Both the position numbers and the translations under genes were made by a program. Positions 34,093 through 54,967 of a DNA stretch of 60,000 nt are shown here, piece after piece. Source of the DNA: Amphiscolops sp. MND2022 (Eukaryota); assembly GCA_964187785.1 (NCBI GenBank), contig OZ076409.1, positions 59,708,001-59,768,000 on the forward strand, in the 5' to 3' direction. A model generated the notes under the pieces. The model saw nothing but the letters and a program-made list of their open reading frames with translations. It had not been told where the DNA came from and made no database searches. Position 1 is the first letter of the stretch. Each line of letters begins with the position of its first letter.

Positions 34093-34255
34093 CGTAAAGC
34101 GACAATTCGTCCCAAGCGACGATTCGTCCCAAGCGACAATTCGTCCCAAATTCCAAAAGGCGACAATTCGTCCCAAGCGACAATTCGTCCCATTTTGAAA
34201 AGGCGACAATTCGTCCCAATTATTAAAAGCTGCAATTTGTCCCCAATTTAATTGC
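34093..34255 (+). repeat. Left arm of a host TIR element (17-bp aagcgacaattcgtccc repeats)
   Basis: About seven copies of gcgacaattcgtccca; inverted counterpart at 54897-54967. Confidence 0.7.
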
Positions 34256-34589
34256 CAATAAAGACCTTTGTAATGATGAATCCGGAAAGATTACAATTAG
34301 AGGCAGGTGCCAACAATTAATTTTAACATTCCACGACTAGTACGTTAAAATGCACCCGTACTGACAACCCATGGTAACCCACCGGTGGCCACCGCATTTC
34401 CCATCGCAGCCCCACCGGTGGCCACCATGGTGGCCGTAACCCATTTTGTGGTGGCCACCGGTGGATCACCGGTGGCCACCGGTGGGTAAAAATGGGTCTT
34501 TAGTGAAAAAACCCACACGAATAAATTTTGTGGTATCCTTTTAAAACTGTCAAAATCTAAAATAACTAAAACAAATCGGAAAAAGATTT

Positions 34590-35645
34590 CAAATTACTGG
34601 GAAAACCACTGGAATAAGATCAAAAATTACCAAAAAACGCTGGAATAAGATCTGAAATCGCTGAGAAAACTACTAAAATAGGATCTAAAATCACCATAAA
34701 AAACCAGTGGAATAAGATAAAATCACCATAAAAAACCACTGGAATAAGATCTAAAATTACCAAAAAAGCACTGTAACAAGTTCTAAAATCACTAAAAAAA
34801 CTACTGGTTTAAGTCTAAAATTACAAAAAAACACTGGAACAAGATCTAAAATTACCAAAAAATACTGGAATAAGATCTAAAATCACTGAAAAAACCACAG
34901 GAATAAGATCTAACATCACCGAAAAAACACCAGAATAACATCTAAAACTACTGAAAAAACCCTGGAATAAGATCTTAACTCACTGGATAACCACTGGAAA
35001 AAGATCTAAAAGTACCGAAAAAACACTGGAATGAGATCTAAAATCACTGAAAAACCACTGGTTTAGGTCTAAAATTACAGAAAAAAAAACGCTGGAATAA
35101 GATCTGAAATCGCTGAGAAAACTACTAAAATAGGATCTAAAATCACCATAAAAAACCAGTGGAATAAGATAAAATCACCTTAAAAAACCACTGGAATAAG
35201 ATCTAAAATTACCAAAAAATACTGGAATAAGATCTGAAATCGCTGGAAAAACCACTAAAATAGGATCTAAAATCAACATGAAAAACCAGTGGGATGAGAT
35301 ATAAAATACAAAATCATCACAAAAACCGACTGGAATAAAATCTGAAATTACCAAAAAACACTGGAATAAGATCTGAAATCGCTGAGAAAACTACTAAAAT
35401 AGATCTAAAATCACCATAAAAAACCAGTGGAATAAGATAAAATCACCATAAAAAACCACTGGAATAAGATCTAAAATTACCAAAAAATACTGGAATAAGA
35501 TCTGAAATCACAGGAAAAACCACTAAAATAGGATCTAAAAACACCATAAAAAACCAGTGGAATAAGATAAAAAATCACCATAAAAACCAGTGGAAGAAGA
35601 TACATAATCACCATAAAAAACCACTGGAATAAGAACTGAAATCGC
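34590..35645 (+). repeat. ~32-bp minisatellite, left arm
   Basis: Tandem variants of ccactggaataagatctaaaattaccaaaaaa. Confidence 0.9.
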
Positions 35646-35659
35646 TGAATTATTATAAA

Positions 35660-38600
35660 AGTGAAAACCGAGATCTGAAACAAGGCAGTTTTCAACATCT
35701 GCCAAAACGCAAATGAGGAAGCAACACTGGGGACACTGACGATCAGGAAGATCATTTAGAGAGTCCCACAAAACGAAAAGGAAGATAATTCATCAAAAAC
35801 ACTGTTGGATATCTACCGAGGTCCATCAGAAAATCAAATCAGGACCACGGAAATTTCCATTTTTTTAGTCTTGGTTGGCCAACTGAAATACAGACGACAC
35901 TAGCAGGGCTACCAATGAGCAGGTGCAATATAAAGCCCCATCCACGAAGGAAATTTCAGTTATGTCATCAAAATATATAGAGTTTAGAAGTTTGTCATGT
36001 TCCTTAAAAAACCGAAAACGGAGATCTGAAACAAGGCAGTTTTCAAAATCTGCCGAAACGCAGACGAGGAAACAACACCGGGAACACTGGCAATTAGGAT
36101 GACCATTTAGAGAGTCCCACAAAACGAAGTGAAAGATAATTCAACAAAAACACTGTTGGATGTCTACCGAGGTCCATCAGAAAAACCAATCAGGACCACG
36201 GAAATGTCCATTTTTTTAGTCTTGGTTGGCCAACTGAAATGCAGTCGACACTAGCAGGGCTACCAACGAGCAGGTGCAATATAAAGCCCCATCCACGAAG
36301 GAACATTCAGATAAGTCATCAAAATTTAGAGTTTAGAAGTTTGTCAAGTACCTTATAAAAGTGAAATCAGAGATCTGAAAACAACGCAGTTTTCAACATC
36401 TGCCAAAACGCAAACGAGGAAGCAACACTGGGGACACTGACAATCAGGAAGATCACTTAGAGAGTCCCACAAAACGAAAAGGAAGATAATTCATCAAAAA
36501 CACTGTTGGATATCTACCGAGGTCCATCAGAAAATCAAATCAGGACCACGGAAATTTCCATTTTTTTAGTCTTGGTTGGCCAACTGAAATACAGACGACA
36601 CTAGCAGGGCTACCAACGAGCAGGTGCAATATAAAGCCCCATCCACGAAGGAACATTCAGATAAGTCATCAAAATTTAGAGTTTAGAAGTTTGTCAAGTA
36701 CCTTATAAAAGTGAAATCAGAGATCTGAAAACAACGCAGTTTTCAACATCTGCCAAAACGCAAACGAGGAAGCAACACTGGGGACACTGACAATCAGGAA
36801 GATCACTTAAAGAGTCCCACAAAACGAAAAGGAAGATAATTCATCAAAAACACTGTTGGATATCTACCGAGGTCCATCAGAAAATCAAATCAGGACCACG
36901 GAAATTTCCATTTTTTTAGTCTTGGTTGGCCAACTGAAATACAGACGACACTAGCAGGGCTACCAACGAGCAGGTGCAATATAAAGCCCCATCCACGAAG
37001 GAACATTCAGATAAGTCATCAAAATTTAGAGTTTAGAAGTTTGTCAAGTACCTTATAAAAGTGAAATCAGAGATCTGAAAACAACGCAGTTTTCAACATC
37101 TGCCAAAACGCAAACGAGGAAGCAACACTGGGGACACTGACAATCAGGAAGATCACTTAAAGAGTCCCACAAAACGAAAAGGAAGATAATTCATCAAAAA
37201 CACTGTTGGATATCTACCGAGGTCCATCAGAAAATCAAATCAGGACCACGGAAATTTCCATTTTTTTAGTCTTGGTTGGCCAACTGAAATACAGACGACA
37301 CTAGCAGGGCTACCAACGAGCAGGTGCAATATAAAGCCCCATCCACGAAGGAACATTCAGTTATGTCATCAAAATATATAGAGTTTAGAAGTTTGTCATG
37401 TTCCTTAAAAAACCGAAAACGGAGATCTGAAACAAGGCAGTTTTCAAAAGCTGCCGAAACGCAAACGAGGAAGCAACACTGGGGACACTGACAATCAGGA
37501 AGATCACTTAAAGAGTCCCACAAAACGAAAAGGAAGATAATTCATCAAAAACACTGTTGGATATCTACCGAGGTCCATCAGAAAATCAAATCAGGACCAC
37601 GGAAATTTCCATTTTTTTAGTCTTGGTTGGCCAACTGAAATACAGACGACACTAGCAGGGCTACCAACGAGCAAGTGCAATATAAAGCCCCATCCACGAA
37701 GGAACATTCAGATAAGTCATCAAAATTTAGAGTTTAGAAGTTTGTCAAGTACCTTATAAAAGTGAAATCAGAGATCTGAAAACAACGCAGTTTTCAACAT
37801 CTGCCAAAACGCAAACGAGGAAGCAACACTGGGGACACTGACAATCAGGAAGATCACTTAAAGAGTCCCACAAAACGAAAAGGAAGATAATTCATCAAAA
37901 ACACTGTTGGATATCTACCGAGGTCCATCAGAAAATCAAATCAGGACCACGGAAATTTCCATTTTTTTAGTCTTGGTTGGCCAACTGAAATACAGACGAC
38001 ACTAGCAGGGCTACCAACGAGCAGGTGCAATATAAAGCCCCATCCACGAAGGAACATTCAGATAAGTCATCAAAATTTAGAGTTTAGAAGTTTGTCAAGT
38101 ACCTTATAAAAGTGAAATCAGAGATCTGAAAACAACGCAGTTTTCAACATCTGCCAAAACGCAAACGAGGAAGCAACACTGGGGACACTGACAATCAGGA
38201 AGATCACTTAAAGAGTCCCACAAAACGAAAAGGAAGATAATTCATCAAAAACACTGTTGGATATCTACCGAGGTCCATCAGAAAATCAAATCAGGACCAC
38301 GGAAATTTCCATTTTTTTAGTCTTGGTTGGCCAACTGAAATACAGACGACACTAGCAGGGCTACCAACGAGCAGGTGCAATATAAAGCCCCATCCACGAA
38401 GGAACATTCAGTTATGTCATCAAAATATATAGAGTTTAGAAGTTTGTCATGTTCCTTAAAAAACCGAAAACGGAGATCTGAAACAAGGCAGTTTTCAAAA
38501 GCTGCCGAAACGCAGACGAGGAAACAACACCGGGAACACTGGCAATTAGGATGACCATTTAGAGAGTCCCACAAAACGAAGTGAAAGATAATTCAACAAA

Positions 38601-41600
38601 AACACTGTTGGATGTCTACCGAGGTCCATCAGAAAAACCAATCAGGACCACGGAAATGTCCATTTTTTTAGTCTTGGTTGGCCAACTGAAATACAGACGA
38701 CACTAGCAGGGCTACCAACGAGCAGGTGCAATATAAAGCCCCATCCACGAAGGAACATTCAGTTATGTCATCAAAATATATAGAGTTTAGAAGTTTGTCA
38801 TGTTCCTTAAAAAACCGAAAACGGAGATCTGAAACAAGGCAGTTTTCAAAAGCTGCCGAAACGCAGACGAGGAAACAACACCGGGAACACTGGCAATTAG
38901 GATGACCATTTAGAGAGTCCCACAAAACGAAGTGAAAGATAACTCAACAAAAACACTGTTGGATGTCTACCGAGGTCCATCAGAAAAACCAATCAGGACC
39001 ACGGAAATGTCCATTTTTTTAGTCTTGGTTGGCCAACTGAAATACAGACGACACTAGCAGGGCTACAACGAGCAGGTGCAAGAAAAAACCCCATCCACGA
39101 AGGAACATTCAGATAAGTCATCAAAATTTAGAGTTTAGAAGTTTGTCAAGTACCTTATAAAAGTGAAATCAGAGATCTGAAAACAACGCAGTTTTCAACA
39201 TCTGCCAAAACGCAGACGAGGAAACAACACCGGGAACACTGGCAATTAGGATGACCATTTAGAGAGTCCCACAAAACGAAGTGAAAGATAATTCAACAAA
39301 AACACTGTTGGATGTCTACCGAGGTCCATCAGAAAAACCAATCAGGACCACGGAAATGTCCATTTTTTTAGTCTTGGTTGGCCAACTGAAATGCAGTCGA
39401 CACTAGCAGGGCTACCAACGAGCAGGTGCAATATAAAGCCCCATGCACGAAGGAACATTCAGATAAGTCATCAAAATTTAGAGTTTAGAAGTTTGTCAAG
39501 TACCTTATAAAAGTGAAATCAGAGATCTGAAAACAACGCAGTTTTCAACATCTGCCAAAACGCAAACGAGGAAGCAACACTGGGGACACTGACAATCAGG
39601 AAGATCACTTAGAGAGTCCCACAAAACGAAAAGGAAGATAATTCATCAAAAACACTGTTGGATATCTACCGAGGTCCATCAGAAAATCAAATCAGGACCA
39701 CGGAAATTTCCATTTTTTTAGTCTTGGTTGGCCAACTGAAATACAGACGACACTAGCAGGGCTACCAACAAGCAGGTGCAATATAAAGCCCCATCCACGA
39801 AGGAACATTCAGTTATGTCATCAAAATATAGAGTTTAGAAGTTTGTCATGTTCCTTAAAAAACCGAAAACGGAGATCTGAAACAAGGCAGTTTTCAAAAT
39901 CTGCCGAAACGCAGACGAGGAAACAACACTGGGGACACTGACAATCAGGAAGATCATTTGGAGAGTCCCACAAAACGAAAAGGAAGATAATTCATCAAAA
40001 ACACTGTTGGATATCTACCGAGGTCCATCAGAAAATCAAATCAGGACCACGGAAATTTCCATTTTTTTAGTCTTGGTTGGCCAACTGAAATGCAGTCGAC
40101 ACTAGCAGGGCTACCAACGAGCAGGTGCAAGAAAAAGCCCCATCCACGAAGGAACATTCAGATAAGTCATCAAAATATAGAGTTTAGAAGTTTGTCATGT
40201 TCCTTAAAAAACCGAAAACGGAGATCTGAAACAAGGCAGTTTTCAAAATCTGCCGAAACGCAGACGAGGAAGCAACACTGGGGACACTAACGATTAGGAA
40301 GATCATTTAGAGAGTCCCACAAACTGAAAAAAAGATAATTCATCGCAAACCACTGTTGGATATCTACCGAGGTCCATTAGAAAATCAGATCAGGACCACG
40401 GAAATTTCCATTTTTCTAGTCTTGGTTGGCCAACTGAAATACAGACGACACTAGCAGGGCTACCAACGAGCAGGTGCAATATAAAGCCCCATCCACGAAG
40501 GAACATTCAGTTATGTCATCAAAATATATAGAGTTTAGAAGTTTGTCATGTTCCTTAAAAAACCGAAAACGGAGATCTGAAACAAGGCAGTTTTCAAAAG
40601 CTGCCGAAACGCAGACGAGGAAACAACACCGGGAACACTGGCAATTAGGATGACCATTTAGAGAGTCCCACAAAACGAAGTGAAAGATAATTCAACAAAA
40701 ACACTGTTGGATGTCTACCGAGGTCCATCAGAAAAACCAATCAGGACCACGGAAATGTCCATTTTTTTAGTCTTGGTTGGCCAACTGAAATGCAGTCAAC
40801 ACTAGCAGGGCTACCAACGAGCAGGTGCAAGAAAAAGCCCCATCCACGAAGGAACATTCAGATAAGTCATCAAAATTTAGAGTTTAGAAGTTTGTCAAGT
40901 ACCTTATAAAAGTGAAATCAGAGATCTGAAAACAACGCAGTTTTCAACATCTGCCAAAACGGAAACGAGGAAGCAACACTGGGGACACTGACAATCGGGA
41001 AGATAATTTAGAGAGTCCCACAAAACGAAAAAGAAGATAATTCTTAGAGTCCCACAAAACGAAAAGGAAGATAATTCATCAAAAACACTGTTGGATATCT
41101 ACCGAGGTCCATCATAAAATCAAGTCAGGACCACGGAAATTTCCATTTTTTTAGTCTTGGTTGGCCAACTGAAATACAGACGACACTAGCAGGGCTACCA
41201 ACGAGCAGGTGCAATATAAAGCCCCATCCACGAAGGAACATTCAGATAAGTATCAAAATTTAGAGCTTAGAAGTTTGTCAAGTACCTTATAAAGTGAAAT
41301 CAGAGATCTGAAAACAAGGCAGTTTTCAAAATCTGCCGAAACGCAAACGAGGAAGCAACACTGGGGACACTAACGATTAGGAAGATCATTTACAGAGTCC
41401 CACAAACTGAAAAAAAAGATAATTCATCGCAAACCACTGTTGGATATCTACCGAGGTCCATCAGAAAATCAGATCAGGACCACGGAAATTTCCATTTTTC
41501 TAGTCTTGGTTGGCCAACTGAAATACAGACGACACTAGCAGGGCTACCAACGAGCAGGTGCAATATAAAGCCCCATCCACAAAGGAACATTCAGTTATGT

Positions 41601-43790
41601 CATCAAAATATATAGAGTTTAGAAGTTTGTCATGTTCCTTAAAAAACCGAAAACGGAGATCTGAAACAAGGCAGTTTTCAAAATCTGCCGAAACGCAGAC
41701 GAGGAAACAACACCGGGAACACTGGCAATTAGGATGACCATTTAGAGAGTCCCACAAAACGAAGTAAAAGATAATTCAACAAAAACACTGTTGGATGTCT
41801 ACCGAGGTCCATCAGAAAAACCAATCAGGACCACGGAAATGTCCATTTTTTTAAGTCTTGGTTGGCCAACTGAAATGCAGTCGACACTAGCAGGGCTACC
41901 AACGAGCAGGTGCAAGAAAAAGCCCCATCCACGAAGGAACTTTCAAATAAGTCATCAAAATTTAGAGTTTAGAAGTTTGTCAAGTACCTTATAAAGGTGA
42001 AATCAGAGATCTGAAAACAAGGCAGTTTTCAACATCTGCCAAAACGCAAACGAGGAAGCAACACTGGGAAACACTGACAATCAGGAAGATCATTTAGAGA
42101 GTCCCACAAAACGAAAAGGAAGATAATTCATCAAAAACACTGTTGGATATCTACCGAGGTCCATCAGAAAATCAAATCAGGACCACGGAAATTTCCATTT
42201 TTTTAGTCTTGGTTGGCCAACCTAAATACAGACGACACTAGCAGGGCTACCAACGAGCAGGTGCAATATAAAGCCCCATCCACGAAGGAACATTCAGTTA
42301 TGTCATCAAAATATAGAGTTTAGAAGTTTGTCATGTTCCTTAAAAAACCGAAAACGGAGATCTGAAACAAGGCAGTTTTCAAAATCTGCCGAAACGCAGA
42401 CGAGGAAACAACACTGGGGACACTAACGATTAGGAAGATCATTTAGAGAGTCCCACAAACTGAAAAAAAAAGATAATTCATCGCAAACCACTGTTGGATA
42501 TCTACCGAGGTCCATCAGAAAATCAGATCAGGACCACGGAAATTTCCATTTTTCTAGTCTTGGTTGGCCAACTGAAATACAGACCACACTAGCAGGGCTG
42601 CCAACGAGCAGGTGCAATATAAAGCCCCATCCACGAAGGAACTTTCAGTTATGTCATCAAAATATATAGAGTGTAGAAGTTTGTCATGTTCCTTAAAAAA
42701 CCGAAAACGGAGATCTGAAACAAGGCAGTTTTCAAAATCTGCCGAAACGCAGACGAGGAAACAACACCGGGAACACTGGCAATTAGGATGACCATTTAGA
42801 GAGTCCCACAAAACGAAGTGAAAGATAATTCAACAAAAACACTGTTGGATGTCTACCGAGGTCCATCAGAAAAACCAATCAGGACCACGGAAATGTCCAT
42901 TTTTTTAGTCTTGGTTGGCCAACTGAAATGCAGTCGACACTAGCAGGGCTACCAACAAGCAGGTGCAAGAAAAAGCCCCATCCACGAAAGAACATTCAGA
43001 TAAGTCGTCAAAATATAGAGTTTAGAAGTTTGTCAAGTACCTTATAAAGTGAAATCAGAGATCTGAAAACAAGGCAGTTTTCAACATCTGCCGAAACGCA
43101 AACGAGGAAGCAACACTGGGGACACTAACGATTAGGAAGATCATTTAGAGAGTCCCACAAACTGAGAAAAAAGATAATTCATCGCAAACCACTGTTGGAT
43201 ATCTACCGAGGTCCATCAGAAAATCAAATCAGGACCACGGAAATTTCCATTTTTTTAGTCTTGGTTGGCCAACTGAAATACAGACGACACTAGCAGGGCT
43301 ACCAACGAGCAGGTGCATTATAAAGCCCCATCCACGAAGGAACTTTCAGTTATGTCATCAAAATATATAGAGTTTAGAAGTTTGTCATGTTCCTTAAAAA
43401 ACCGAAAACGGAGATCTGAAACAAGGCAGTTTTCAAAATCTGCCGAAACGCAGACGAGGAAACGACGCCGGGAACACTGGCAAATAAGATGACCATTTAG
43501 AGTCCCACAAAACGAAGTGAAAGATAATTCATTGAAAAACACTGTTGGATGTCTTCCGAGGTAGATCAGAAAAACAAATTAGGAACACAGAAATGTCCAT
43601 TTTTTTAAATCTTGGTTGGCCAACTGAAATGCAGTCGACACTAGCAGGGCTACCAACGAGCAGGTGCATGAAAAAGCCCCACCCACGAAGGAAAACTCAG
43701 TTATGTCATCAAAATATAGAGTTAAGAATTTTGTCATGTTCCTTGAAAAACTGAAAACAGAGATCTGAAACAAGGCAGTTTTCAAAAAAA
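35660..43790 (+). repeat. ~350-bp tandem satellite, about 23 units
   Basis: The agatctgaaa...gcagttttcaa anchor recurs at 35671, 36022, 36371, 36721, 37071 ... 43761; units are highly similar, with variant blocks. Confidence 0.95.
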
Positions 43791-43799
43791 AACAATCAC

Positions 43800-44231
43800 A
43801 AACACGCCGGGAACGGCTCAAGTCGGCGCCTCGCGCAAGGCATAAAAGTTTCACCGGGGCTCCTGGTTATAGTGTTCAGACGTTACACTCGCATACGAAA
43901 ATTTGTATGAAATCGTTGGTATATCAAATATCTCAAATAGCCGAAAATATCAAAAGGGGCCCTCTAGGACTTGCAAAAACTGTTATATTACCTTGAAACA
44001 GTAGAACAACTGGAGGAGGGTACTTTGCGGCCAAAACAATTCGCAAAAATCTCATTGCCTAAAAAATAACTAAGGTTAGACGCTTCTGTTTTCGCAGGAG
44101 TTTGTGAAGAACTTAAAAAGACCATCTTCATGGTTTATATTCATGCCTTTGATAACAAATAATATCCATTACATTGTGTGGCCAGTTGAACAGTCACTGT
44201 AATAGTCGGGTATTTTTAGTCACCGACTAAA
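43800..44231 (-). mobile_element. HINE-like element (family A-related) at the end of the satellite
   Basis: aacacgccgggaacggctcaagtcggcgcc ... caccgactaa. Confidence 0.7.
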
Positions 44232-44784
44232 AACAATCAAATGGATTGAAGCAAGAATCAATTCAGTTTTCATTTCAGCATAATTTTTCAAAGAATGTTG
44301 GATACCCCATTACGGTGCACAGGCAAGCTATTTTGCTGCTTGTCGTGGAATCCGGGACGCGAGGAAATTGTTTGTTAACTGTTTGTTATTTGTTTGGGGA
44401 ATCCGGGACATATGACGTAGTTTGCCAATTTTGCACGGTTAAAGGTATGGTCGTGGAATCCGAGGTATTGAAAGCACAAAATTGTGCTTTGAGCGAATTT
44501 AGCTTGCCTATGCACTGTAATGCCGCTGGGATCCTCCAGAATATCAATTCTGGTTCTCGAAGAATCCGTTTCTATAGATTTGTCTGTTCGTTTGAAAAAC
44601 AACATTAGGAGGGCTATAACCGGAATCTCGCTGAAAAGCCCCTTCCTTCCGCGACGAAAAGTTCTAGAAATAACCGAAAAATCGTGTTTAATTTTCTGTC
44701 CAGTTCGATCTGAAACAAATCGGATATCTAGAGCAGCTGTATTCAGATGGAAACACATCGGAAGTAAATACAATAGGAAGAACT

Positions 44785-45055
44785 AACACAGAGGCGAAGC
44801 GATGCTTCGCAACACATGACGAAGAACTCGATTTACGATACAGCATATTCGTATATATTCAACACTTCAATTTGCTTCAATGTAGCTCTAGTGGCGCAGT
44901 GATTAACACCTACGCCGTGAAATCGAGAGGCCGCTGGTTCGAATCTCTCTGGGCTTTTGACTTTTTTCCGAAAGGCGCTCATTATGAAGTTGTCTATTAG
45001 AAACAGAATAAATTGGGTGGGCTGCAATGCACATTGACTTCGTCATGTGCAATAA
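44785..45055 (-). mobile_element. HINE-like element, family C, copy 1, carrying a tRNA-like cassette (44885-44955, + strand)
   Basis: Subterminal inverted repeat cacatgacgaag / cttcgtcatgtg; hairpin gcgaagc-gat-gcttcgc; A box TGGCGCAGTG and B box GGTTCGAATC. Confidence 0.7.
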
Positions 45056-45118
45056 TATGGATCAAGTTATCAGAGAAGATTACTAAAGAAACTAAACTGT
45101 TCCAAAACGGAGTCCATT

Positions 45119-48100
45119 TCATTTGTGATCCAGGAAGGGTGGTACGGACGCCAAGTATAGCTTGTTTCGAGACGTCATGAAAAACATTTTTTCGAAAGAT
45201 ATTGCTTCAATCATGTCTTCTTCCCCGGTAAACTCAACTTCGAAAAAGAATTGGCTTCTTGGACAATCAAGAATGGTGACGACGCCTTTTGCAGCCATTT
45301 TCTTGATTTGAGCGAACTTCCAGCCACTGGTATAGCTATCATCACCCATGATAATGAAAAAAACGATCTGACCGAAAATATTGTCACTTCCAATTTCTGC
45401 TCTTATGAAGCTGTTGGGACACGCAGGACATCTTCTGTAGCATACTGAATCAAAATACACACCGTCAACAAAAGAACGTGAAAGAATCTGAGCGCCGGGG
45501 TGAATTTCCAAACAATTTTCTATCTGGGCCAGAGGTAGAACATCCCTCGAGAAGTTTTTCTCGGACGATTTCCCAGTTTTCCACCATTGTTGAAGCAATT
45601 CAGCGGCTCTGTCATCCTCAAAAACAGCAGATGTGAGCTCTTGTGCTTCTATATAGCGGCGACAAATGACTGAACAGTGAGAATGCGTGCCAGAAAAACA
45701 TTGATTGAGCGTCCTATTGGCAGATTCGAAGGCCATGGCTGAGAATACAAATAAGGGACCATATGAGCGGCATTGATAGGAGAGATGTTTAAGGCAGTGC
45801 ACATTAATGGTTTCAGCAGTCTCAGACTGGAAAACATCCTTGACTCCACTGCAGAATTTCTCTAGCAGACTTTCAGCAACGACAATATCTTCTTCTGCAG
45901 AGGACTGCATAAGTATACGGATACCAAAAACCAAAAACAAAAGTTGGTGGTAAAGACTATCAGACAAGCGTTCTCGAAAAATGATGGGACTCACAAACAG
46001 CAAATAATTGAAGTATTCACTCGCTTTGAAATGACCCATTTGGGAAGGGTCACGAATGTTTCGACCATGTTCTATAACTTCCAATGGTGCATGTATCATC
46101 TGGACTTCTTTGCAAACTTCCATCTTAGATTGAGTGCAGAGAGATTTCCACAGTAATTTCAGTAATTCCTGAAGGTAATGTTAGCAAATGTACCTCAGTC
46201 AAAATTAATTGTTGATGTTAATACGTGATTGTTTTTTTCTATCAAAAACGAAAACAAGTAGGAACAAATTCAGCTGATGTGAATAAAAAATGATGTAAAA
46301 AGAGAAAATTCAAAATTTGCTAACACTACCTGGAAACAACCCAAAAAAACGCAGTGCATATAGTCTATTCCGGCACTGAGGGGAAGATCTTTAACTAATC
46401 CGTGAAACGCACTTCTACCTTTCACACCACAAACATTCGTTGTCGATGATGATGCATTCAACTCTGCGGCAAGATAAACATATTTATCGTTCAACTGCGG
46501 TGTCCTGATTTGGAATGATTGGTCGTTGGGATAATATGAATGAGTACGGTTGATAGTTTTCCCCTCTATTGTGCAATAGTTACAACCATAAAAGCCATTG
46601 TATTGAACCTAGAGTTTCAAGCTGACAGTTTTTTCCGTTATTGTAAATACTCGTTTGAACATTATTCTGAACTTCCACTTACCATTACAAAACATTGTAT
46701 GCATTTCGTTTCCAACTGAAGTTCGGCCATTAAAAAGAATAAACGTTTTTTATATGGTTTTCTGAAAATTTTTCCACGAGATGTAGCAATCGTTGCACAT
46801 GCAATGTAGTTATAACAAACCTTTACTATCATTTGCGGTATAGTATTTGCGGTATCCAATTTGCTACATCAGACTTAGCGCTTGGATCAACAAACACCTA
46901 TTTTTTCTTTTGTATGTTCAAAGTTCATGTTCAGCTCAAAACACTAGTTGTACCATGTTCAGCAAACTACATTTTGCGATAAGATCCGCAACGATGCCCA
47001 TCACCTCGAATCTGACTTCATATTGAGCGGAGAGGCACCTTCTTCCGGAGCTCCTGTGCTATTTGGGGCACAATTTCTTCCCATGGAGGTTTGGAGTTAC
47101 CAACGAACAAGGATGCCAAGGAAATGTTTTTTTGAGCCATTCTCAGCTTGGGGGGCAAATTAGCAACAGCCAACCAGAATGGCCACAGACTGGTATTGCT
47201 AGAGTTCACGATGCTCACGCCATCAGTGGAAAGGATCAACTGAACTTCCAGAACAGTGAAACATCGGTGGACTGGTTTAACTTTCTCGATGGGAAAGTCA
47301 TTTATCACTTTCGATTTCTCTTTGTGTTCGGAGTACGAAAACATTGTCTCTTAATTTCTCTCCACTATCTGTTTTAAGAAATCAGTAAAGCTCAAAACGC
47401 ATACTTCACCGCGGCTGAGTTGCTTAGCTTCCAGTGACATCTTCCTCTTATTTGTCTTCATCTTATAAATGAAAGAAAATTGCGGCGGTAATTAATTTTC
47501 CTCAGGAAGAAGACAGTCGACCAGTTCGTAAAGCTTCTGCATGCCAAAATCGCTCAAATGGAATTTCGAGCAGAATGAACGGAGCAAAAGGATGGCATTA
47601 TTGACTCCTATGTCAGCGCCTGCATATAGGGGTTGTCCCATGGTAGTGAGAGAACTTTCTTCGAATTTCGGATTTACATATTCTGAAGTGACACTGGATA
47701 CAATTCCTGAAAAATGAGGACTGTGGCAACTTCTTTCAGGGAGTGGCGACGAAATTTTCGTTTGCAGTGGAATCGAAGGGGATGAAGCTGAGTTGCTAGT
47801 CAATTCATGATTTGCTACATCAGAAGTATGAAATACTTGAGACTGGGAAAAACCAACAGGATCTTCCGAGGTAGTGCTTTCAGGGGATCTGTCGAAGAGT
47901 AATTCATCTGACTCATAGGCAACCTTGAAGGCTCGGAGTTTATCAGCCCAAAAAACTCGATCTGGCCTCTTCCGAGAAACGGCTTTGCTGTCACTTAAGG
48001 CTTTTTCCGACAGAAGGTGTTCAACAACACTGCATATTTCCTCATCAACAACTTCCTTTAAAACACTTTCCGAGTACAAAATGCGGCTGTTCTCCAAATA

Positions 48101-48808
48101 AGTCGATTGCTCACAGGTGGCACAAAGACAACTAAAACTTTCGAAGAAATCTTCAGAGTACTTCACTAATCTTTCGGTATTAGGATAAATAGATTTGATG
48201 GCTCTCAACTTGACTACTTTGGGATCACTACTGAAATCATACACAGCATTTGGATCGCAATCAGAGTTTACGAAGCGCACAGGGCCTAACATCAAAAACG
48301 ACACACCCGGTGAAGAAATTTTCTGGATAATGCTCAATTCGGTTATATTATCGGGAATCGTAGCCAGAAAGCCCACGGGTGACGAAGGGAACAAGTCTCC
48401 GGGCCGAATTCTATCTTCACCAACATAAAAGAGACAGTAACCTCCAAAGGCATCATGTTTTATTTCGTATAAACCATGAAGATCCTCGTAAACGGCAAGA
48501 CAAACCTAATAACAGTCTGCAAGCGACCTATCCCGTTGACATTGCTTGAGGAAGGCATCGATTGGTCTTAATCTCAAAACCGTCATTGCTTCTCGACCCC
48601 CGTATTCGACATTTGATCGTACAACTTGTCCATCACTGTGACTTAGCATTCGCCAGTCTAGATCTTTTGGCAACATCATATATCTTAAAGATAAACAAAC
48701 TGCAGAAAATCAAAAACTCAAGGGAAGATGGAAATTAGAAATTAAGAGACAGCAGAAATGCGACTTTGACAAGGGCTTTTTTGAGATACATGTAGGTTTC
48801 TTACTCAT
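45119..48808 (-). pseudogene. SET domain (Suv4-20/Set9-like) fused to EnSpm/CACTA transposase; spliced and disrupted
   Basis: Putative exons 48805-48808, 46954-48699, 46330-46608, 45119-46168. SET/post-SET motif LGPVRFVNSDCDPN...KYSEDFF..CLCATCE. Transposase motifs PLYAGA..LLPEEN, STDG..SLWP..NLPP, VADL, QYNGFYGCNYC, GVKG, DYMHCVFLG, FKASE, NVHCLKHL, GPL..SAMAFES. Stops at 48506-48508, 47492-47494 and 47351-47353, and a frameshift near 47020. Confidence 0.88.
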
Positions 48809-48952
48809 TGATTCAGATCAATATTCAAAATCAACTACAGAAATTGTATTGCAGAAAAAATTCGGGCCAATCAAAATTAAACTGCAGCAGTACAACGAAG
48901 AACGGCAAACAATTAGTTACGAGTAAATCAACAGGTGAGAGGGGAAGCTTAT

Positions 48953-50846
48953 TCAAAGAACCGTTTCCGAAAGCACGTTTTTGTCTATTTGAACAGAAGT
49001 TTCGTTCATTTCGTTCATCTGGGTGGAATCTCTGGAGTCAACACCGCTGCTGCTCCTTCGCGATGCCTTGTATTTCGCTTCGGGACCCATCTTATTAACG
49101 CTTAATTTGGCTTCTTCATAAGCCGTTATCCTATTGTCCCCATACTTTCCACGGAAGGCATCTAAACACCAAAAAACTTCCATTTCTCAACAATTTGAAT
49201 CGGCGCATCAAGTGACAGAAAAATTGACAAGGGACGATAATGTTAAACTTTTTTTACTTGCCTTTGCATAGTTCTTTTCTCCGGGGGCTAAAATCTGGCC
49301 GGCTGCTATTATTTTTCTTCTCCGGAGACATCATGCATTGGTTGATCTCTTCTGGGGAAAAAAGCGCCGACATTACAAGGCGCCCATACGCTTTAGGGGT
49401 TTTGGCTTTCAAGGCCAGCAAATTCTCACCGTCGTAATTTACGGCCGGCTTCCCTTCAGGAGTTTCTTCAATCGGTGCTGTGAGACCAAGTCTCTGGACA
49501 GCTTTAGTCTAAAACAAAGAGCAAAATGAGAAAGACAAAAGCGATTCAAGCTCCCATGCATCGAAGGCTCCAATTGCGATTTTTCACAGAAATTTCCAGA
49601 ACGTTTTCGAATGGAAAAAAGCAGTTTCGCGCGAAAACGATAAAACTTTTACAGACAGTCGGAAGACTTTTTACTAACCAAGTCGACTATGACTCGTTGA
49701 AACTTCGAGATTTCTGCGGCATTTTTATTGGTCAGAGTGTTCAATGACCGATTGAAAGTTTTAACACTTGAGTCCAGTTGGCTAACGACACTCGTGAGCT
49801 GCTGGACTGCCCCCGAAAGACCGTGATTATCAGGCTGACTGGGCTGAAAACAACAGTTGCAGTAGCTGAAATGTTCTCCGAATAGCAGTAGCAAATCCAA
49901 AAATTCTATCTAACTCGAACCAAAACTGCATAAGAAAAATCTCTAGCTTCATCCCAAATTCATTGATTAAAAACAACTCAAAGCCTGGGGTTCATTAAAA
50001 ACATGTAATTTTGCTGGCCATGACCGCAAGTTTTCTGAAACATATCGTTATCAATGTTGCTTTAAATTCAGTTTATTCGGAAAACAGCTGGTGAAACATT
50101 GATTTCGATTCAAACGGCTGCCTCATATATAGGCCGTTGGATGGAAAGTAGTCAATTGAACTTTTTTTAAAAACGAACTTTCATTGTGGAGAAATCAATC
50201 TTTTCCACATCCAGTGTGGTCAACACTTTTTTCTTAAGAGGAAGTGCAGCCGTTGGCGTAGTAGCCGGTCGTTTTTTCGGCACGGGGCAACTCGATCGGA
50301 CTTCTTGACAGGGCATGTTGTCCTGAAAGACAGGAGTTTACAGGGATAAAAGACACGAAAAAATTGAACAGTGACAAATTAGAAATTTATTAGAGCAATG
50401 ATACTCAGCGGAGGCCCCGATAAAAGCCTGCTTCAACGAAAATGAATAGAATTATTGTAAAATACTGAGATATAAATCAACAAAAACTCACCTCAGATGG
50501 AACTTCTACAACATCCACTGCTTCGACCATCTGGCTTGTCGAAGGAAAAGGAGTGCAGTGGAACGAAAATTCCAAATCGGGCTCCCCACTATGCTCCTTG
50601 CACGCCTGTGACAACAAGGTGAGACACTTCTCCACATGTTTTCTCCATGAACTTGAAAACGAAAACATCCCCCACTTTTGCAAGTGCCCGCTGCGCGAGG
50701 TTGCACTCGATCCCCGAAAATCCTGCTGCCACTACCATCAATTTTCCATCTTCAAAAAAGTAGACCAGCCAGTGAACATCTTTAAATGGTCATCTTCAAA
50801 ATCATCACAGCGAGTGCGGATTGGTCGTTGGATGATGGACGACATA
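48953..50846 (-). CDS. Transposon accessory gene: coiled coil plus C-terminal BEN domain (5' exons degenerate)
   Basis: Exons 49679-49843 (heptad repeat VQQLTSVVSQLDSSVKTFNRSL), 49262-49508 (TPKAYGRLVMSALFSPEEINQC..RPDFSPRRKELCK) and 48953-49161 (YEEAKLSVNKMG). Upstream exons near 50200-50322 and 50492-50846 contain stops or frameshifts. Confidence 0.65.
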
Positions 50847-51496
50847 ATTTTGATCTGTAGCAACAAAAAAAAACGTTTTGGAGATTTAATACTGAACGCG
50901 GTTGAAAAGCAACAATTGAATGCAAATTCTGAAGTTGAAAAAATTGATTACGTAATACCATTAACAAGCCGTGAAAAGAGCTCATGTGGGCGCCCCGCTC
51001 AAGGCACAAAAGTTCATATGGGGGCGTGGTTTTGGTCACTCGCTGAAAGTCCAGAAAAAAACAAATCTGTAGGGTCTCAGGAATTCGAATATTTCGATGA
51101 GAAAAATTCAGTTTTATTTTACCAAGGTAATAAGAAGGGGAGGCTAGAGTGAGGAAATATAAGCCAGAATGACAAAACTTCGGCAAGCGAGAAAACAACG
51201 AGCAACAGTGAGTGATTTCTCGGATTTGATTGATTCTTTCATGCGAGCGCCTCTTGGTAGTGGAATGGTTCCTGTCTCACATAACTCGCTTCAATACTAC
51301 AACTATTATTACTATATAAAGCTAGCAGATAAACTGTGATGCCAGAAGAAGCATTACTTTAAGTATCAGATTATAAAACACTGATTATGGATCCATGAAG
51401 ATGTTTTAGATGAACTCAAAACAAATCAATATTAAAGTTGGAAAAACATCAAAAATAACAAGAACAGAGTATATCATGTCACAGAAGCGAAGCTGA

Positions 51497-52104
51497 TCAA
51501 AAGAACCTCTCTAGGGAGGGATGGTGCTGTCGCCCTTTGCAATCCAGGGCAGAGTGAGCCCTCTTCGGTAGCTTTTTCTTCTTTAATGCCTTTTTAGTAT
51601 CAAACATCCTCATGGAACTTTGAAAATTCTGCCTAATTGAAGTAAGTTCTTGCTCATTGAAGAAGGATGACGTCTGCAGTATTTCTTCACATCTTCTCGC
51701 TGCCTCGATTGTCAGAAAGTTCACCTTGGTCAGAGATTCCTCGATTATAAAAATGAGGCGGAATCAAAAATCAAAACGTCAGAAAATCATCAAGGCCCAT
51801 TCAAATATATCCTCAAAAGCCAAAAACATAAGTAATAAAAACTGCGACAAGATATCGCGGAACCTCTGACCTTCACCCAACCCAGTTCGGCTGAAAGTAC
51901 GTTTATTGATTCGACCTCAGCGAAATATTGTGCGAACATTTGCTCAATGACCATCCTACCGATGGGCACACTGGGAAAAACTGGTGGTAGATTTGAGTGG
52001 GGTTTCCGTTTAAGAGAAAGTGTTAAGAAATCATTCTCGCCCCCTGGCACTGGTTCGTTGAGAACGTCCCTCGATTTCACTTGATGGCTTGGAATTTTTC
52101 CCAT
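51497..52104 (-). CDS. Transposon-borne two-exon gene, ~160 aa, unknown function
   Basis: Exon 51871-52104 (MGKIPSHQ...ELGWVK, donor gtcag) joins 51497-51739 (ESLTKVNF...LERFF*) in phase 0; basic C-terminal patch KKALKKKKLPKR. Confidence 0.55.
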
Positions 52105-52465
52105 TTTTGTCTGCAAAAGAAATTTCACTTAGAAAAATCACCCAAGCAGTTCGAAAACATTAACACCTACAAAATACCTAAAACGAGTTGCTAATCTTAC
52201 CTACCAGCGGCTTCAGGAAACGCGGTGCCGAAAAGCGTCCTCAATGCTACCCGGGTCATTGAGGCAACCCATTGAAGTTCCTGTCTCTCAAAAATCTTTT
52301 CAATACTACTACTATTAAGTAACCGAAGAAGCTAAGATTTTTTTTTCATTGTTCTCTCATAAATTACGTCATGGTGTGTAACCCAACCCTAATAGTACTT
52401 CAGAAATTCGATTTTTTCCGAAGTCTTTCAACCGGCTTTTTTTGAATTTGGAAGTAAAAAACATT

Positions 52466-52730
52466 GACACAGAGGCGAAGCGATGCTTCGCAACACATGA
52501 CGAAAAAAGCGATTTACTATACGGCATATGCGTATATATTCAACATTTCAACTGACTTCAATGTAGTTCCTATGGCGCAGTGGATAACACCTCTGCCGTG
52601 CAATCGGAATGCCGCAGGTTCGAATCTCACCGGGGCTTTTGGCTTTTGTCTAAAATTCACTCATAATGCAGATGACGATAGTGGAAAAAAACTAAGCTAG
52701 GTAGACTGCAATGCACATTGACTTCGTATG
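52466..52730 (-). mobile_element. HINE-like element, family C, copy 2, with tRNA-like cassette (52566-52636, + strand)
   Basis: Homologous to 44785-45055 and in the same orientation. Confidence 0.7.
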
Positions 52731-53229
52731 AGTTCGCATGAAATAAGAACGGTTCATCGTTTCAGAGCGTCACTTCTAATGTGCACAGTTGGGAATCTGT
52801 GCATTACGAAAACATTTGTGAGCGACCGATTTTTTTTCTTATTTATATTTTTTCTCCTTTACTTTTTTACTTAAATACTAAAGGGGTCGTACGCATCGGG
52901 GCCACGTTTTAGGATGGATGATTTTTTAAGGAAATTAATAAATGGTTTTCGAGATAGTTCTATTTTCCACCAATGAGCTGGTGGAGGGTTGTCAGTCCCA
53001 AGGCCAATGAGCTGGCCACCAATGAGCTGGTGGGAGTGTCCGCTTACCTTTCGGATGGCGTTAGACAGAGGTTCATTATAGTAATGTTCTGAATTATCAA
53101 TCAAATTGAAAAAAAAGGTTCATTATAGTAATGGTCTGAATTATCAATCAAATTGACAAAGGATCAAATTTTATCGAATGATGAAAATACAAGCTACAGT
53201 ATCACAAAATTGAGAAACAAATACGGTGA

Positions 53230-54487
53230 TCTAAAACCCATGAAAAACACCTGAAAAAAATCTAAAATTACTGAAAAAACCCGGACTAAGATCTAAAATC
53301 ACTGAAAAAACCACAGGAATAAGATCTAACATCACCGAAAAAACACCAGAATAACATCTAAAATTACTGAAAAAACCACTTGAATAAGATCTAAAATCAC
53401 TGAAAAACCACTGGTTTAGGTCTAAAATTACAGAAAAAAACGACTGGAATAAGGTCTAAAAGTACTGAAAAAGTCAGTGGTTTAAGTCTAAAATTACCAA
53501 AAAAGCACTGTAACAAGATCTAAAATCACAAAAAACTACTGGTTTAAGTCTAAAATTACAAAAAAAACACTGGAACAAGATCTAAAATCACTGAAAAAAC
53601 CATTGGTTTAAATCTAAAATTACAGAAAAAACGACTGGAATAAGGTCTAAAAGCACTGAAAAAGTCAGTGGTTTAAGTCTAAAATTACCAAAAAAGCACT
53701 GTAACAAGTTCTAAAATCACTAAAAAAACTACTGGTTTAAGTCTAAAATTACAAAAAAAACACTGGAACAAGATCTAAAATTACCAAAAAATACTGGAAT
53801 AAGATCTAAAATCACTGAAAAAACCACAGGAATAAGATCTAACATCACCGAAAAAACACCAGAATAACATCTAAAACTACTGAAAAAACCACTGGAATAA
53901 GATCTGAAATCGCTGAGAAAACTACTAAAATAGGATCTAAAATCATCATAAAAAACCAGTGGAATAAGATAAAATCACCATAAAAAACCACTGGAATAAG
54001 ATCTAAAATTACCAAAAAATACTGGAATAAGATCTGAAATCGCTGGAAAAACCACTAAAATAGGATCTAAAATCAACATGAAAAACCAGTGGGATGAGAT
54101 ATAAAATACAAAATCACCACAAAAACCGACTGGAATAAAATCTGAAATTACCAAAAAACACTGGAATAAGATCTGAAATTGCTGAGAAAACTACTTAAAT
54201 AGATCTAAAATCACCATAAAAAACCAGTGGAATAAGATAAAATCACCATAAAAAACCACTGGAATAAGATCTAAAATTACCAAAAAATACTGGAATAAGA
54301 TCTGAAATCGCTGGAAAAACCACTAAAATAGGATCTAAAAACACCATAAAAAACCAGTGGAATAAGATAAAAAATCACCATAAAAACCATTGGTTTAAAT
54401 CTAAAATTACAGAAAAAAGTCAAACTCTGAAATCACCCAAAAAAATCACTGGAATAAGATCTAAACTCACTGGATAACCACTGGAAA
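53230..54487 (+). repeat. ~32-bp minisatellite, right arm
   Basis: Same unit and same orientation as 34590-35645, with long near-identical blocks. Confidence 0.9.
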
Positions 54488-54896
54488 ATGTTTTTCGGAC
54501 ACGATCTGAATATGCAAACAGGGTTTACAGAAAATTCAGAACCGGTCCTGATAATTATCCCATTCTGTTTGGCTTTGATGCGTCTAAAGGTATTTCGTGT
54601 AGTAAATCCTGTTTCTAGAAATTTTAAACGAAATTTTCATTTTCGAAATTTTCGAATTTTCCACCGATGGTCCATCGGTGGACCACCGGTGGCCACCGAT
54701 GGGAAAGCCTCCATGTATCCTAATTTTCCCCCACCGGTGGCCACCGGTGGTCCACCGATGGCCACTGGTGGGTTACCATGGGTTGTCAGTACGGGCAACA
54801 TTTTCTAATTATTCTCACATGGTTGAATGAATTCATTTGTAGTTGGTTTGATTAATTTTTGCGTTTCAACCTTCAAAAGGTTGGTAATTAGCTGAT

Positions 54897-54967
54897 CAAT
54901 TAAACAATTTGGGACGAATTGTCGCTTTTTATAAATGGGACGAATTGGCGCCTTTTCAAAATGGGAC
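54897..54967 (-). repeat. Right arm of the host TIR element, interrupted by the retrotransposon
   Basis: tgggacgaattgtcgc repeats (reverse complement of the left arm) break off at ...aaatgggac|tgtcgcagg. Confidence 0.7.

What the first reader, a model, noticed from the sequence alone, without database searches (positions are those of the whole stretch)
34355..54795. 20-kb multi-gene CMC transposon with a chromatin-related cassette (SET-transposase, BEN protein, orphan gene) and satellite cargo
Seen: intact TIRs and a 2-bp TSD enclose three co-oriented spliced genes, ~8 kb of satellite and paired minisatellite arms. Known: CACTA elements usually carry a transposase plus accessory DNA-binding genes, and plant VANDAL elements encode anti-silencing proteins that bind tandem motifs inside the element. 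Inference: this may be an animal self-regulating or anti-silencing transposon in which a BEN protein binds internal repeats and the SET domain modifies local chromatin. The perfect TIRs and TSD alongside a decayed transposase suggest this copy was moved in trans by an intact relative.
Basis: partly seen in the sequence, partly recalled or inferred. Interest (0 to 1): 0.85.

Follow-up and report, generated by a model that had tools for sequence, protein, structure and literature searches.

The report
Transposase fused to H4K20-type methyltransferase
This is a recently inserted, now decayed copy of a large animal cut-and-paste transposon family whose transposase is fused to a domain like the histone H4K20 methyltransferase SUV4-20 and which carries a BEN-fold DNA-binding gene; together these likely let the element act on the chromatin at its own ends.

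Summary
The element is real: 29-bp perfect TIRs and a 2-bp TSD (15 of 16 paired copies checked), 266 empty host sites, and three more full-length copies with the same cassette. It belongs to an old radiation of CMC/EnSpm-type transposons with a SUV4-20-type SET domain fused in frame to the transposase. All three genes are under purifying selection (SET dN/dS 0.16). BEN is supported by fold on a homolog. The 350-bp satellite is inherited across six subfamilies, not random cargo. A new ~70-bp non-coding block ending in a splice donor is 81-97% conserved across families whose SET domains share as little as ~30% identity; it is likely a shared leader exon. SET-transposase fusions also occur in other datasets.

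Corrections: the BEN gene here is also broken. The lesions are private, so decay after insertion fits better than mobilisation in trans. Nothing shows anti-silencing. Whether the SET is catalytic is open (Ser161, Tyr217 and the zinc site kept; His183, Trp174, Phe191 changed).

SET-bearing transposons are known (oomycete HarbingerS, MuDR, Helentron), and this scan already noted BEN-CMC pairs on other DNA. I found no description of this fusion. New variant; interest 0.72.

The parts
34353..34354 (.). Left copy of the 2-bp target-site duplication (CA)
   Evidence: empty site with one CA, 266 matches
34355..34383 (+). Terminal inverted repeat, 29 bp, 5'-CCC end (3' end of the element relative to its genes)
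   Evidence: 160 exact matches genome-wide
34379..34485 (.). Cluster of CCACCGGTGG palindromes; candidate BEN or transposase binding sites (binding inferred)
   Evidence: 4 copies; CCA-N0..8-TGG 11 per 200 bp vs shuffle mean 0.4
34578..35649 (.). 32-bp minisatellite arm; also kept in short non-autonomous copies
35653..43787 (.). 350-bp satellite, 23 copies, homologous in six subfamilies, with a conserved ~40-bp core
44781..45050 (-). Nested ~270-bp tRNA-Ala-like dispersed repeat (ordinary, about 2,000 matches genome-wide)
45119..46168 (-). Transposase exon 3 (H-x3-H motif, catalytic E, C-terminal domain)
46330..46608 (-). Transposase exon 2 (CxxC and DxxH motifs)
46954..48679 (-). Transposase exon 1: SUV4-20-type SET domain (about 48110-48679), acidic Ser-rich linker, first two catalytic D; broken here by stops at 48506-48508, 47492-47494, 47351-47353 and an 11-nt deletion near 47036
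48953..50845 (-). Five-exon BEN gene (exons 50845-50492, 50322-50179, 49843-49679, 49508-49262, 49161-48953): N-terminal beta-rich domain, coiled-coil-like stretch (by eye), C-terminal BEN. 395 aa in an intact sibling; broken here by 19- and 50-nt deletions in exon 1
51497..52104 (-). Two-exon orphan gene (52104-51871, 51724-51497), 153 aa, open in this copy; RRM-like strand/helix pattern by eye only
52196..52270 (-). Highly conserved ~70-bp non-coding block ending in the donor AG|GTAAG; likely leader exon or promoter of the transcription unit
52461..52745 (-). Second nested tRNA-Ala-like dispersed repeat
52955..53067 (-). Second conserved non-coding block with a GGTAAG donor-like site and CCA-N6-TGG palindromes; 19 matches genome-wide, 17 upstream of the orphan gene
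53228..54418 (.). 32-bp minisatellite arm, same orientation as the left arm
54661..54771 (.). Cluster of CCAYCGRTGG motifs inside the right end
54767..54795 (-). Terminal inverted repeat, 29 bp
54796..54797 (.). Right copy of the 2-bp TSD (CA)
34187..54967 (.). Host: a small inverted-repeat element (arms 34187-34248 and 54906-54967) split by the insertion
   Evidence: (pair I11)

Best explanation
This is a decayed copy of a CMC/EnSpm-type DNA transposon whose transposase carries an in-frame SUV4-20-type SET domain that likely methylates nucleosomes (probably H4K20, with altered product specificity) where the transposase binds, while a BEN protein likely binds the palindrome clusters inside the ends as TnpA does in En/Spm. 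SHOWN: cut-and-paste anatomy (TIR, 2-bp TSD, empty sites, DDE and CMC motifs); in-frame SET fusion in many subfamilies; SET and transposase diverging together; purifying selection on SET, BEN and orphan genes; BEN fold on a homolog; end-motif clusters kept in non-autonomous copies; inherited satellite; a conserved donor-ending block and acceptor-like sites before most start codons. INFERRED: one leader exon is spliced onto each of the three ORFs; BEN binds CCA-Nx-TGG clusters and helps pair ends or control the promoter; the SET acts on the element's own or target nucleosomes to favour transposition, expression or repair of the break; this copy inserted whole and decayed in place.
For: TSD in 15 of 16 pairs; empty sites. 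D, D, E, CxxC, DxxH and H-x3-H in 13 of 13 full-length transposases. SET profile hits SUV4-20 at E 2.5e-21, next SET family at 1.7e-8. Ser161, Asn182 and Tyr217 equivalents in 32 of 32 CMC SETs; zinc cysteines in 31-32 of 32; roles of Ser161 and Tyr217 from PMC3874154 passages. dN/dS: SET 0.16, SET core 0.07, BEN exons 0.03-0.07; orphan pN about 0.1 vs pS about 0.56, linker 0.55. SET vs transposase identity rho 0.68, n=13. The host has its own canonical Suv4-20 exon (L124), so these domains are not the host gene. BEN: top 5 of 48,161 chains are BEN domains, Z 5.5-6.3; Atlas top cluster BEN 41%. Insv binds CCAATTGG palindromes (PMC4281564). Short copies keep 8-16 motifs (12 of 12) and no genes. 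Leader block; acceptors 20 of 26 vs 26% background.
Against: No expression, binding or activity data. In CMC SETs His183 is Ser in 27 of 32, Trp174 is lost in 32 of 32, and Phe191 is Tyr in 28 of 32; the Phe-to-Tyr change greatly cut activity in Suv4-20h1 (PMC3874154). BEN was folded on a distant homolog (29% to the window's exon 4); Z is under 8, Foldseek gave no significant match, and Pfam and PDB profiles missed it. End motifs diverge with both BEN and transposase, so the binder cannot be assigned; 2 of 11 ends lack the motif excess, and the motif was chosen after looking. Some lineages had no BEN hit in the 6 kb examined. No subfamily-1 copy has all three genes open.
Confidence: 0.5

Rival explanations
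1. The SET domain is a weak or dead enzyme kept as a nucleosome/H4-tail reader that docks the transpososome on chromatin or steers target choice; the rest of the anatomy is as in the best explanation.
For: His183Ser, loss of Trp174 and Phe191Tyr in the focal clade; loss of activity for the Tyr switch in Suv4-20h1; the lysine channel and zinc site are what stay invariant; fusion to the transposase suits a targeting role.
Against: Asn182, Ser161 and Tyr217 are invariant in 62 of 62 rows; 5 of 32 CMC SETs and all 15 SETs labelled YR-like keep His183 (93). Recalled, not tested: the His contact to SAM is mainly through the main chain, and Tyr at the switch suits a monomethylase.
Confidence: 0.28
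2. VANDAL/TnpA-like anti-silencing system: BEN binds internal repeats and recruits the SET to open the element's chromatin.
For: TnpA binds clustered terminal motifs and activates its elements (10.64898/2026.08.24.746577, section 4); CCA-N6-TGG palindromes lie in a conserved block upstream of the genes; the satellite core is conserved.
Against: The SET sits on the transposase, not on BEN. SUV4-20 marks are described as repressive (listing). Characterised fly BEN-solo proteins repress or insulate (110). No chromatin data.
Confidence: 0.14
3. The SET methylates a non-histone protein (the transposase itself, BEN or the orphan) as a self-limiting switch.
For: Altered methyl pocket; Lys-rich C-terminal tail in the orphan.
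Against: No direct evidence; the H4-binding main-chain segment DLSV/DFSV is conserved (52, 56).
Confidence: 0.06
4. The SET, BEN and orphan genes are passively captured host fragments without function for the element.
For: Every subfamily-1 copy examined has at least one broken gene (94, 131).
Against: Strong purifying selection between subfamilies; co-divergence with the transposase down to about 25% identity; fixed gene order in many lineages.
Confidence: 0.02

Closest known systems
CMC (CACTA/EnSpm-Mirage-Chapaev) DNA transposons, animal 2-bp-TSD type (e.g. ENS1_Cis; PMC6004678 passages; motifs in PMC12730594 passages)
   Same: DDE transposase with C(2)C and H(3-4)H motifs, DUF1258/Transposase_21 hits, short TIR, 2-bp TSD, subterminal repeats, many non-autonomous copies.
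   Different: 5'-CCC rather than CAC ends; N-terminal SUV4-20-type SET fused in frame; BEN and third gene; inherited satellite; conserved donor-ending non-coding block.
En/Spm with TnpA (10.64898/2026.08.24.746577: abstract, section 4 and passages; single-promoter alternative splicing recalled)
   Same: A second DNA-binding gene, family-specific motif clusters at the ends, and likely one leader spliced to several ORFs.
   Different: The accessory protein has a BEN fold, not a transposase-derived TnpA; the transposase bears a SET domain; no regulatory activity shown.
SET-bearing transposons: HarbingerS and MuDR of Phytophthora (cited in PMC12730594; Repbase Reports not seen) and proto-Helentron-Pi (PMC4067079 passages)
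   Same: A SET gene carried by a DNA transposon.
   Different: Those are oomycete elements of other superfamilies; the Helentron SET is a separate Clr4-like ORF. Here the SET is SUV4-20-type, in an animal CMC element, and part of the transposase chain.
SETMAR/Metnase (recalled)
   Same: SET domain N-terminal to a DDE-type transposase.
   Different: SETMAR is a single domesticated host gene made from a mariner; here the fusion is on mobile, multi-copy elements and the SET is of the H4K20 class.
SUV4-20/KMT5B-C H4K20 methyltransferases (PMC3874154 passages)
   Same: Best PDB profile match; Ser161, Asn182, Tyr217 and post-SET zinc cysteines kept.
   Different: Trp174 to Met/Leu/Val, His183 to Ser and Phe191 to Tyr in most CMC copies.
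BEN-solo factors Insv, Bsg25A, BANP, BEND3/6, NACC1 (PMC4281564 passages; PDB hits)
   Same: Fold match over the whole domain; palindromic CCA..TGG candidate sites resemble Insv's CCAATTGG.
   Different: Transposon-borne; below Pfam detection; DNA binding untested.

Membership tests
CMC/EnSpm transposon | DDE triad | tested here: met
   D486, D569, E820 in 13 of 13 full-length proteins
CMC/EnSpm transposon | [quoted passage not shown] | tested here: met
   CxxC and H-x3-H in 13 of 13
CMC/EnSpm transposon | 2-5 bp TSD | tested here: met
   2-bp TSD of varied sequence in 15 of 16 pairs; empty sites
CMC/EnSpm transposon | 5'-CA..TG-3' termini 'in most cases' (PMC12730594) | tested here: not met
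   Ends are CCC..GGG in all subfamilies whose ends were read. The paper gives this as usual, not obligatory; that CCC ends are accepted in animal CMC elements is recalled.
CMC/EnSpm transposon | Transposase family profile | tested here: met
   DUF1258 above cut-off (E 1.6e-8), Transposase_21 below cut-off
SUV4-20-type SET domain | Closest solved SET family | tested here: met
   SUV420H1/H2 E about 1e-21, others 1e-8 or weaker
SUV4-20-type SET domain | Ser161 and Tyr217 lysine channel, post-SET zinc cysteines | tested here: met
   Ser and Tyr 32 of 32; cysteines 31-32 of 32
SUV4-20-type SET domain | Hydrophobic methyl pocket Phe191/Trp174 that demands H4K20me1 | tested here: not met
   Tyr in 28 of 32; Trp absent in 32 of 32
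SUV4-20-type SET domain | H4K20 methyltransferase activity | not testable with these tools
   needs an enzyme assay
BEN domain | BEN fold | tested here: met
   Model of homolog L056 (pLDDT 77): top five matches all BEN, Z 5.5-6.3, rmsd 3.3-4.3 over 84-96 residues; link to the window exon by phmmer and alignment. Z is under 8, so moderate strength.
BEN domain | Pfam PF10523 match | tested here: inconclusive
   No hit on single exons or on L056; Atlas look-alikes BEN 41% and 35%, DUF4806 42%
BEN domain | Sequence-specific DNA binding | not testable with these tools
   needs EMSA, SELEX or ChIP
VANDAL/TnpA-type anti-silencing system | Family-specific motif clusters in the element | tested here: met
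   CCACCGGTGG, CCATGCATGG and CCATGATTCATGG clusters in different subfamilies; excess in 9 of 11 ends
VANDAL/TnpA-type anti-silencing system | Trans-acting loss of silencing | not testable with these tools
   needs chromatin and expression data
RRM fold (orphan gene) | Profile or structure match | tested here: inconclusive
   No significant Pfam or PDB hit; pattern by eye only; not folded

The most novel reading that the evidence does not exclude
An ancient, multi-species lineage of animal transposons carries its own H4K20 writer on the transposase and a BEN reader of its end motifs, all spliced from one ultraconserved leader, and so writes its own chromatin state on its ends and built-in satellite. 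The same SUV4-20-type domain also rides on an unrelated, tyrosine-recombinase-like mobile family, giving one animal genome more than 150 mobile H4K20-type SET domains.
Probability: 0.3. Interest if true: 0.88.

Novelty: new variant of a known kind. Interest (0 to 1): 0.72.

Why it matters
Transposon-encoded chromatin enzymes are described mainly from plants, fungi and oomycetes. A selected, in-frame fusion of an H4K20-class SET domain to an animal transposase makes it testable whether a transposon writes or reads histone marks at its own integration sites. It gives a natural, still-mobile parallel to SETMAR, and a route by which SUV4-20-like and BEN genes multiply. The inherited satellite with a conserved core shows a transposon family seeding satellite arrays. 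The altered active site is of enzymological interest whichever way the assay falls.

Tried and rejected
No RNA holder was listed, so no reads were laid; this says nothing about expression. The single-sequence fold of the full transposase failed (pLDDT 32.5) and was not searched. The Atlas gave no usable hit for the SET-transposase. Foldseek had no significant match for BEN; Insv-BEN had the best TM-score, 0.50, at E 5. The word search for BEN relatives found none, and the PDB profile missed BEN (49). 'Nucleosome-length satellite period is special' was rejected: 153-186-bp periods are also common in 317 kb of control DNA (85). 'tRNA-like insulators flank the cassette' was rejected: the repeat has 1,982 matches genome-wide, and standard ARAGORN and Rfam found nothing. 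Leader block as a known RNA: no credible Rfam match; no exact match in metagenome contigs. My hand-drawn structure has 3 pairs with double changes (128) but RNAalifold picks another fold with none, so this is inconclusive. Tyrosine-recombinase identity of the other SET carriers was not confirmed by PDB, PHROGs or Pfam. RRM for the orphan was not confirmed. 'Moved in trans after decay' was rejected as unnecessary. PMC3093488 was not held. No complex was predicted.
Full report
1. Observation. The ends are a perfect 29-bp inverted repeat starting CCC, at 34355-34383 and 54767-54795, flanked by CA on both sides. Inside lie 32-bp minisatellite arms in the same orientation and a 350-bp satellite of 23 copies. 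The insertion splits a small inverted-repeat host element, whose empty site with one CA occurs 266 times at up to 2 mismatches. The TIR has 160 exact matches in the 1.07-Gb genome. I examined 16 convergent pairs, taken from the first 100 listed; 15 have a 2-bp TSD, of six different dinucleotides. Four pairs are long (14.6-20.4 kb), collinear and about 96% identical, and all carry the three genes and the satellite. The twelve short ones hold ends and arms but no gene sequence, and only one has a trace of satellite.

2. Genes. The transposase has three exons. The copy at C3:63.5 Mb is open for 1,021 codons; the window copy has three stops and an 11-nt deletion. D, D, E, CxxC, DxxH and H-x3-H are present in 13 of 13 full-length relatives, matching the CMC motifs stated in PMC12730594 (passages). 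The second gene has five exons. It is open in two siblings (395 and 396 codons) but stops at codon 36 here. The third gene has two exons and 153 codons and is open here. Against subfamily 2, dN/dS is 0.16 for the SET region, 0.07 for its core, 0.08-0.18 for the transposase and 0.03-0.07 for three BEN-gene exons, while the linker gives 0.55. For the orphan only the predicted minus-strand frame is stop-free in both subfamilies and has pN about 0.1 against pS about 0.56. All lesions are private, copies differ by 1.3-1.9%, and private changes are 62 nonsynonymous to 23 synonymous. This copy most likely inserted whole and then decayed.

3. The SET domain. It matches SUV4-20 best (E 1e-6 alone; 2.5e-21 as a 16-sequence profile against 1.7e-8 for the next family). 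Using the numbering of PMC3874154 (passages), 32 CMC-borne SETs keep Ser161, Asn182 and Tyr217 in 32 of 32 and the zinc cysteines in 31-32 of 32. His183 is Ser in 27, Phe191 is Tyr in 28 and Trp174 is lost in all. That paper reports a dramatic loss of activity for the Tyr switch in Suv4-20h1, which counts against a canonical dimethylase; a monomethylase or a reader remain open. The host has a separate canonical Suv4-20 exon with all these residues (L124). The deep nodes of the SET tree are weak, so I draw no donor or order of events from it.

4. Spread of the fusion. A SET query gave 150 scored matches from 356 candidates in this genome. Of 40 loci that I picked across the score range, 25 have the CMC transposase core downstream, 1 has the SET only, and 14 have no such core. 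BEN exon 4 was hit upstream in 12 of the 26, two more by phmmer, and three more by the N-terminal domain alone. Among the best 150 representatives from 1.84 billion proteins, 55 are 400 aa or longer, of which 35 match the transposase core. Of 40 long ones that I scanned, 21 show SET plus DUF1258 or Transposase_21. Sources include ENA, Logan and NCBI, without names. Of two that I tested, one matched this genome at 32% at best and one not at all at E 1e-120 (only the best candidates are scored). So the fusion probably exists in other species, whose identity I do not know. SET and transposase identities correlate (rho 0.68, n=13, permutation p 0.0005) and the two trees share their better-supported groups, which fits long co-inheritance.

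5. BEN. Single exons gave no Pfam hit. An intronless homolog (L056) aligns to window exon 4; its Atlas look-alikes are BEN and DUF4806 clusters (recognition value below the usual threshold). Its model (pLDDT 77) has BEN domains as the top five of 48,161 chains, Z 5.5-6.3, though Foldseek found nothing significant. Insv binds CCAATTGG palindromes (PMC4281564, passages). CCA-N0..8-TGG occurs 6-12 times per 200 bp in 9 of 11 ends against shuffle means of 0.2-0.6, with family-specific cores, and all 12 short copies keep 8-16 motif copies. The motif was chosen after looking, and the transposase could be the binder. TnpA works through such clusters (10.64898/2026.08.24.746577; abstract, section 4 and passages).

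6. Non-coding parts. The satellite unit is homologous in six subfamilies (71-88% over 106-333 bp), with a conserved core of about 40 bp that has 1,228 matches genome-wide, many as singletons or in arrays I did not examine. Other subfamilies carry unrelated arrays. A ~70-bp block at 52196-52270 ending in AG|GTAAG is 81-97% conserved across subfamilies, 95% even where the SET is about 32% identical. It gave 38 hits in 1.36 Mb of fetched DNA (3 weak, 2 duplicate loci), none in the 14 non-CMC SET loci, and 11 lie 232-261 bp inside a CCC terminus. An acceptor-like site lies within 45 nt before 20 of 26 start codons (16 of 22 without tandem duplicates; two spurious pattern matches dropped) against 26% of 5,090 control ATGs. 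I infer one leader spliced to each ORF, as recalled for En/Spm; no RNA was available to check. A second block at 52955-53067 has 19 matches, 17 of them upstream of the orphan gene.

7. Mechanism. I commit, at 0.5, to a transposase that brings an active SUV4-20-type domain of altered specificity to nucleosomes at its ends or target, helped by a BEN protein on the end motifs. The anatomy, conservation and selection are shown; binding, splicing and catalysis are inferred.

8. What is known. SET genes on transposons are reported for HarbingerS and MuDR of Phytophthora (cited in PMC12730594; the Repbase Reports were not seen) and for a Helentron (PMC4067079, passages); SETMAR is recalled. Ten paper searches showed no SUV4-20-type SET fused to a CMC transposase and no BEN-CMC pairing; most were seen as listings only, subscription journals and Repbase/Dfam are not covered, and no supplements were read. 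Unchecked notes of this scan report BEN-CMC pairs in several animals and a SET exon in a moss CACTA, so the BEN part is recurrent, while no note held the SET-transposase fusion.

9. Verdict. A real, well-supported new variant of a known kind. The surprise lies in the selected in-frame H4K20-type SET fusion, its breadth, and the conserved leader; the function is untested. Interest 0.72.

Noticed in passing
L060:5022-8480, L062, L065, L068, L069, L073, L076: The same SUV4-20-type SET sits in or just upstream of ORFs with zinc-finger-like and tyrosine-recombinase-like motifs (by eye; Crypton-like is a recalled lead). Profiles did not confirm the recombinase. Six of 55 long database hits match this type.
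   Followed up: partly
L037:6967-7563; also L041-L046: In several subfamilies the first gene is an SGNH/GDSL-hydrolase-like ORF (Pfam E 2e-5, below cut-off) in place of the orphan, often tandemly duplicated.
   Followed up: partly
window 52196-52270 and L047, L058, L059: In some subfamilies the donor of the conserved block is followed at once by GATTTTTTG(A/G), which resembles an Sm site (recalled); a spliced-leader-like role is not excluded.
   Followed up: no
L001, L006, L022, L030, L056, L137: The first gene or the BEN gene is tandemly duplicated within many copies, sometimes with its leader block.
   Followed up: partly
G000 C6:20.27 Mb (L021-L024): A 33.5-kb TIR-to-TIR copy with an AT TSD and about 50 satellite units; array length varies from 8 to 50 units among copies.
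   Followed up: partly
window 49261-49262: BEN-gene intron 4 has a GC donor in all six copies aligned.
   Followed up: yes
G000 C6:20.27 Mb, C3:16.3 Mb, C10:35.9 Mb, C9:43.4 Mb, C6:27.3 Mb: A tRNA-Glu(TTC)-like sequence lies upstream of the genes in several subfamilies under relaxed ARAGORN settings; not counted genome-wide.
   Followed up: no
L075:3743-4399: A multi-copy 219-aa SUV4-20-type SET ORF with Trp at the switch position and no transposase in the same frame.
   Followed up: no
window 798-919 and 29096-29234: Perfect 52-bp and 58-bp inverted repeats with short spacers outside the element; the first resembles sequence inside the 5' end of the C10:35.9 Mb subfamily.
   Followed up: no
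window 20022-20976: A 185-bp-period tandem array unrelated to the element.
   Followed up: no
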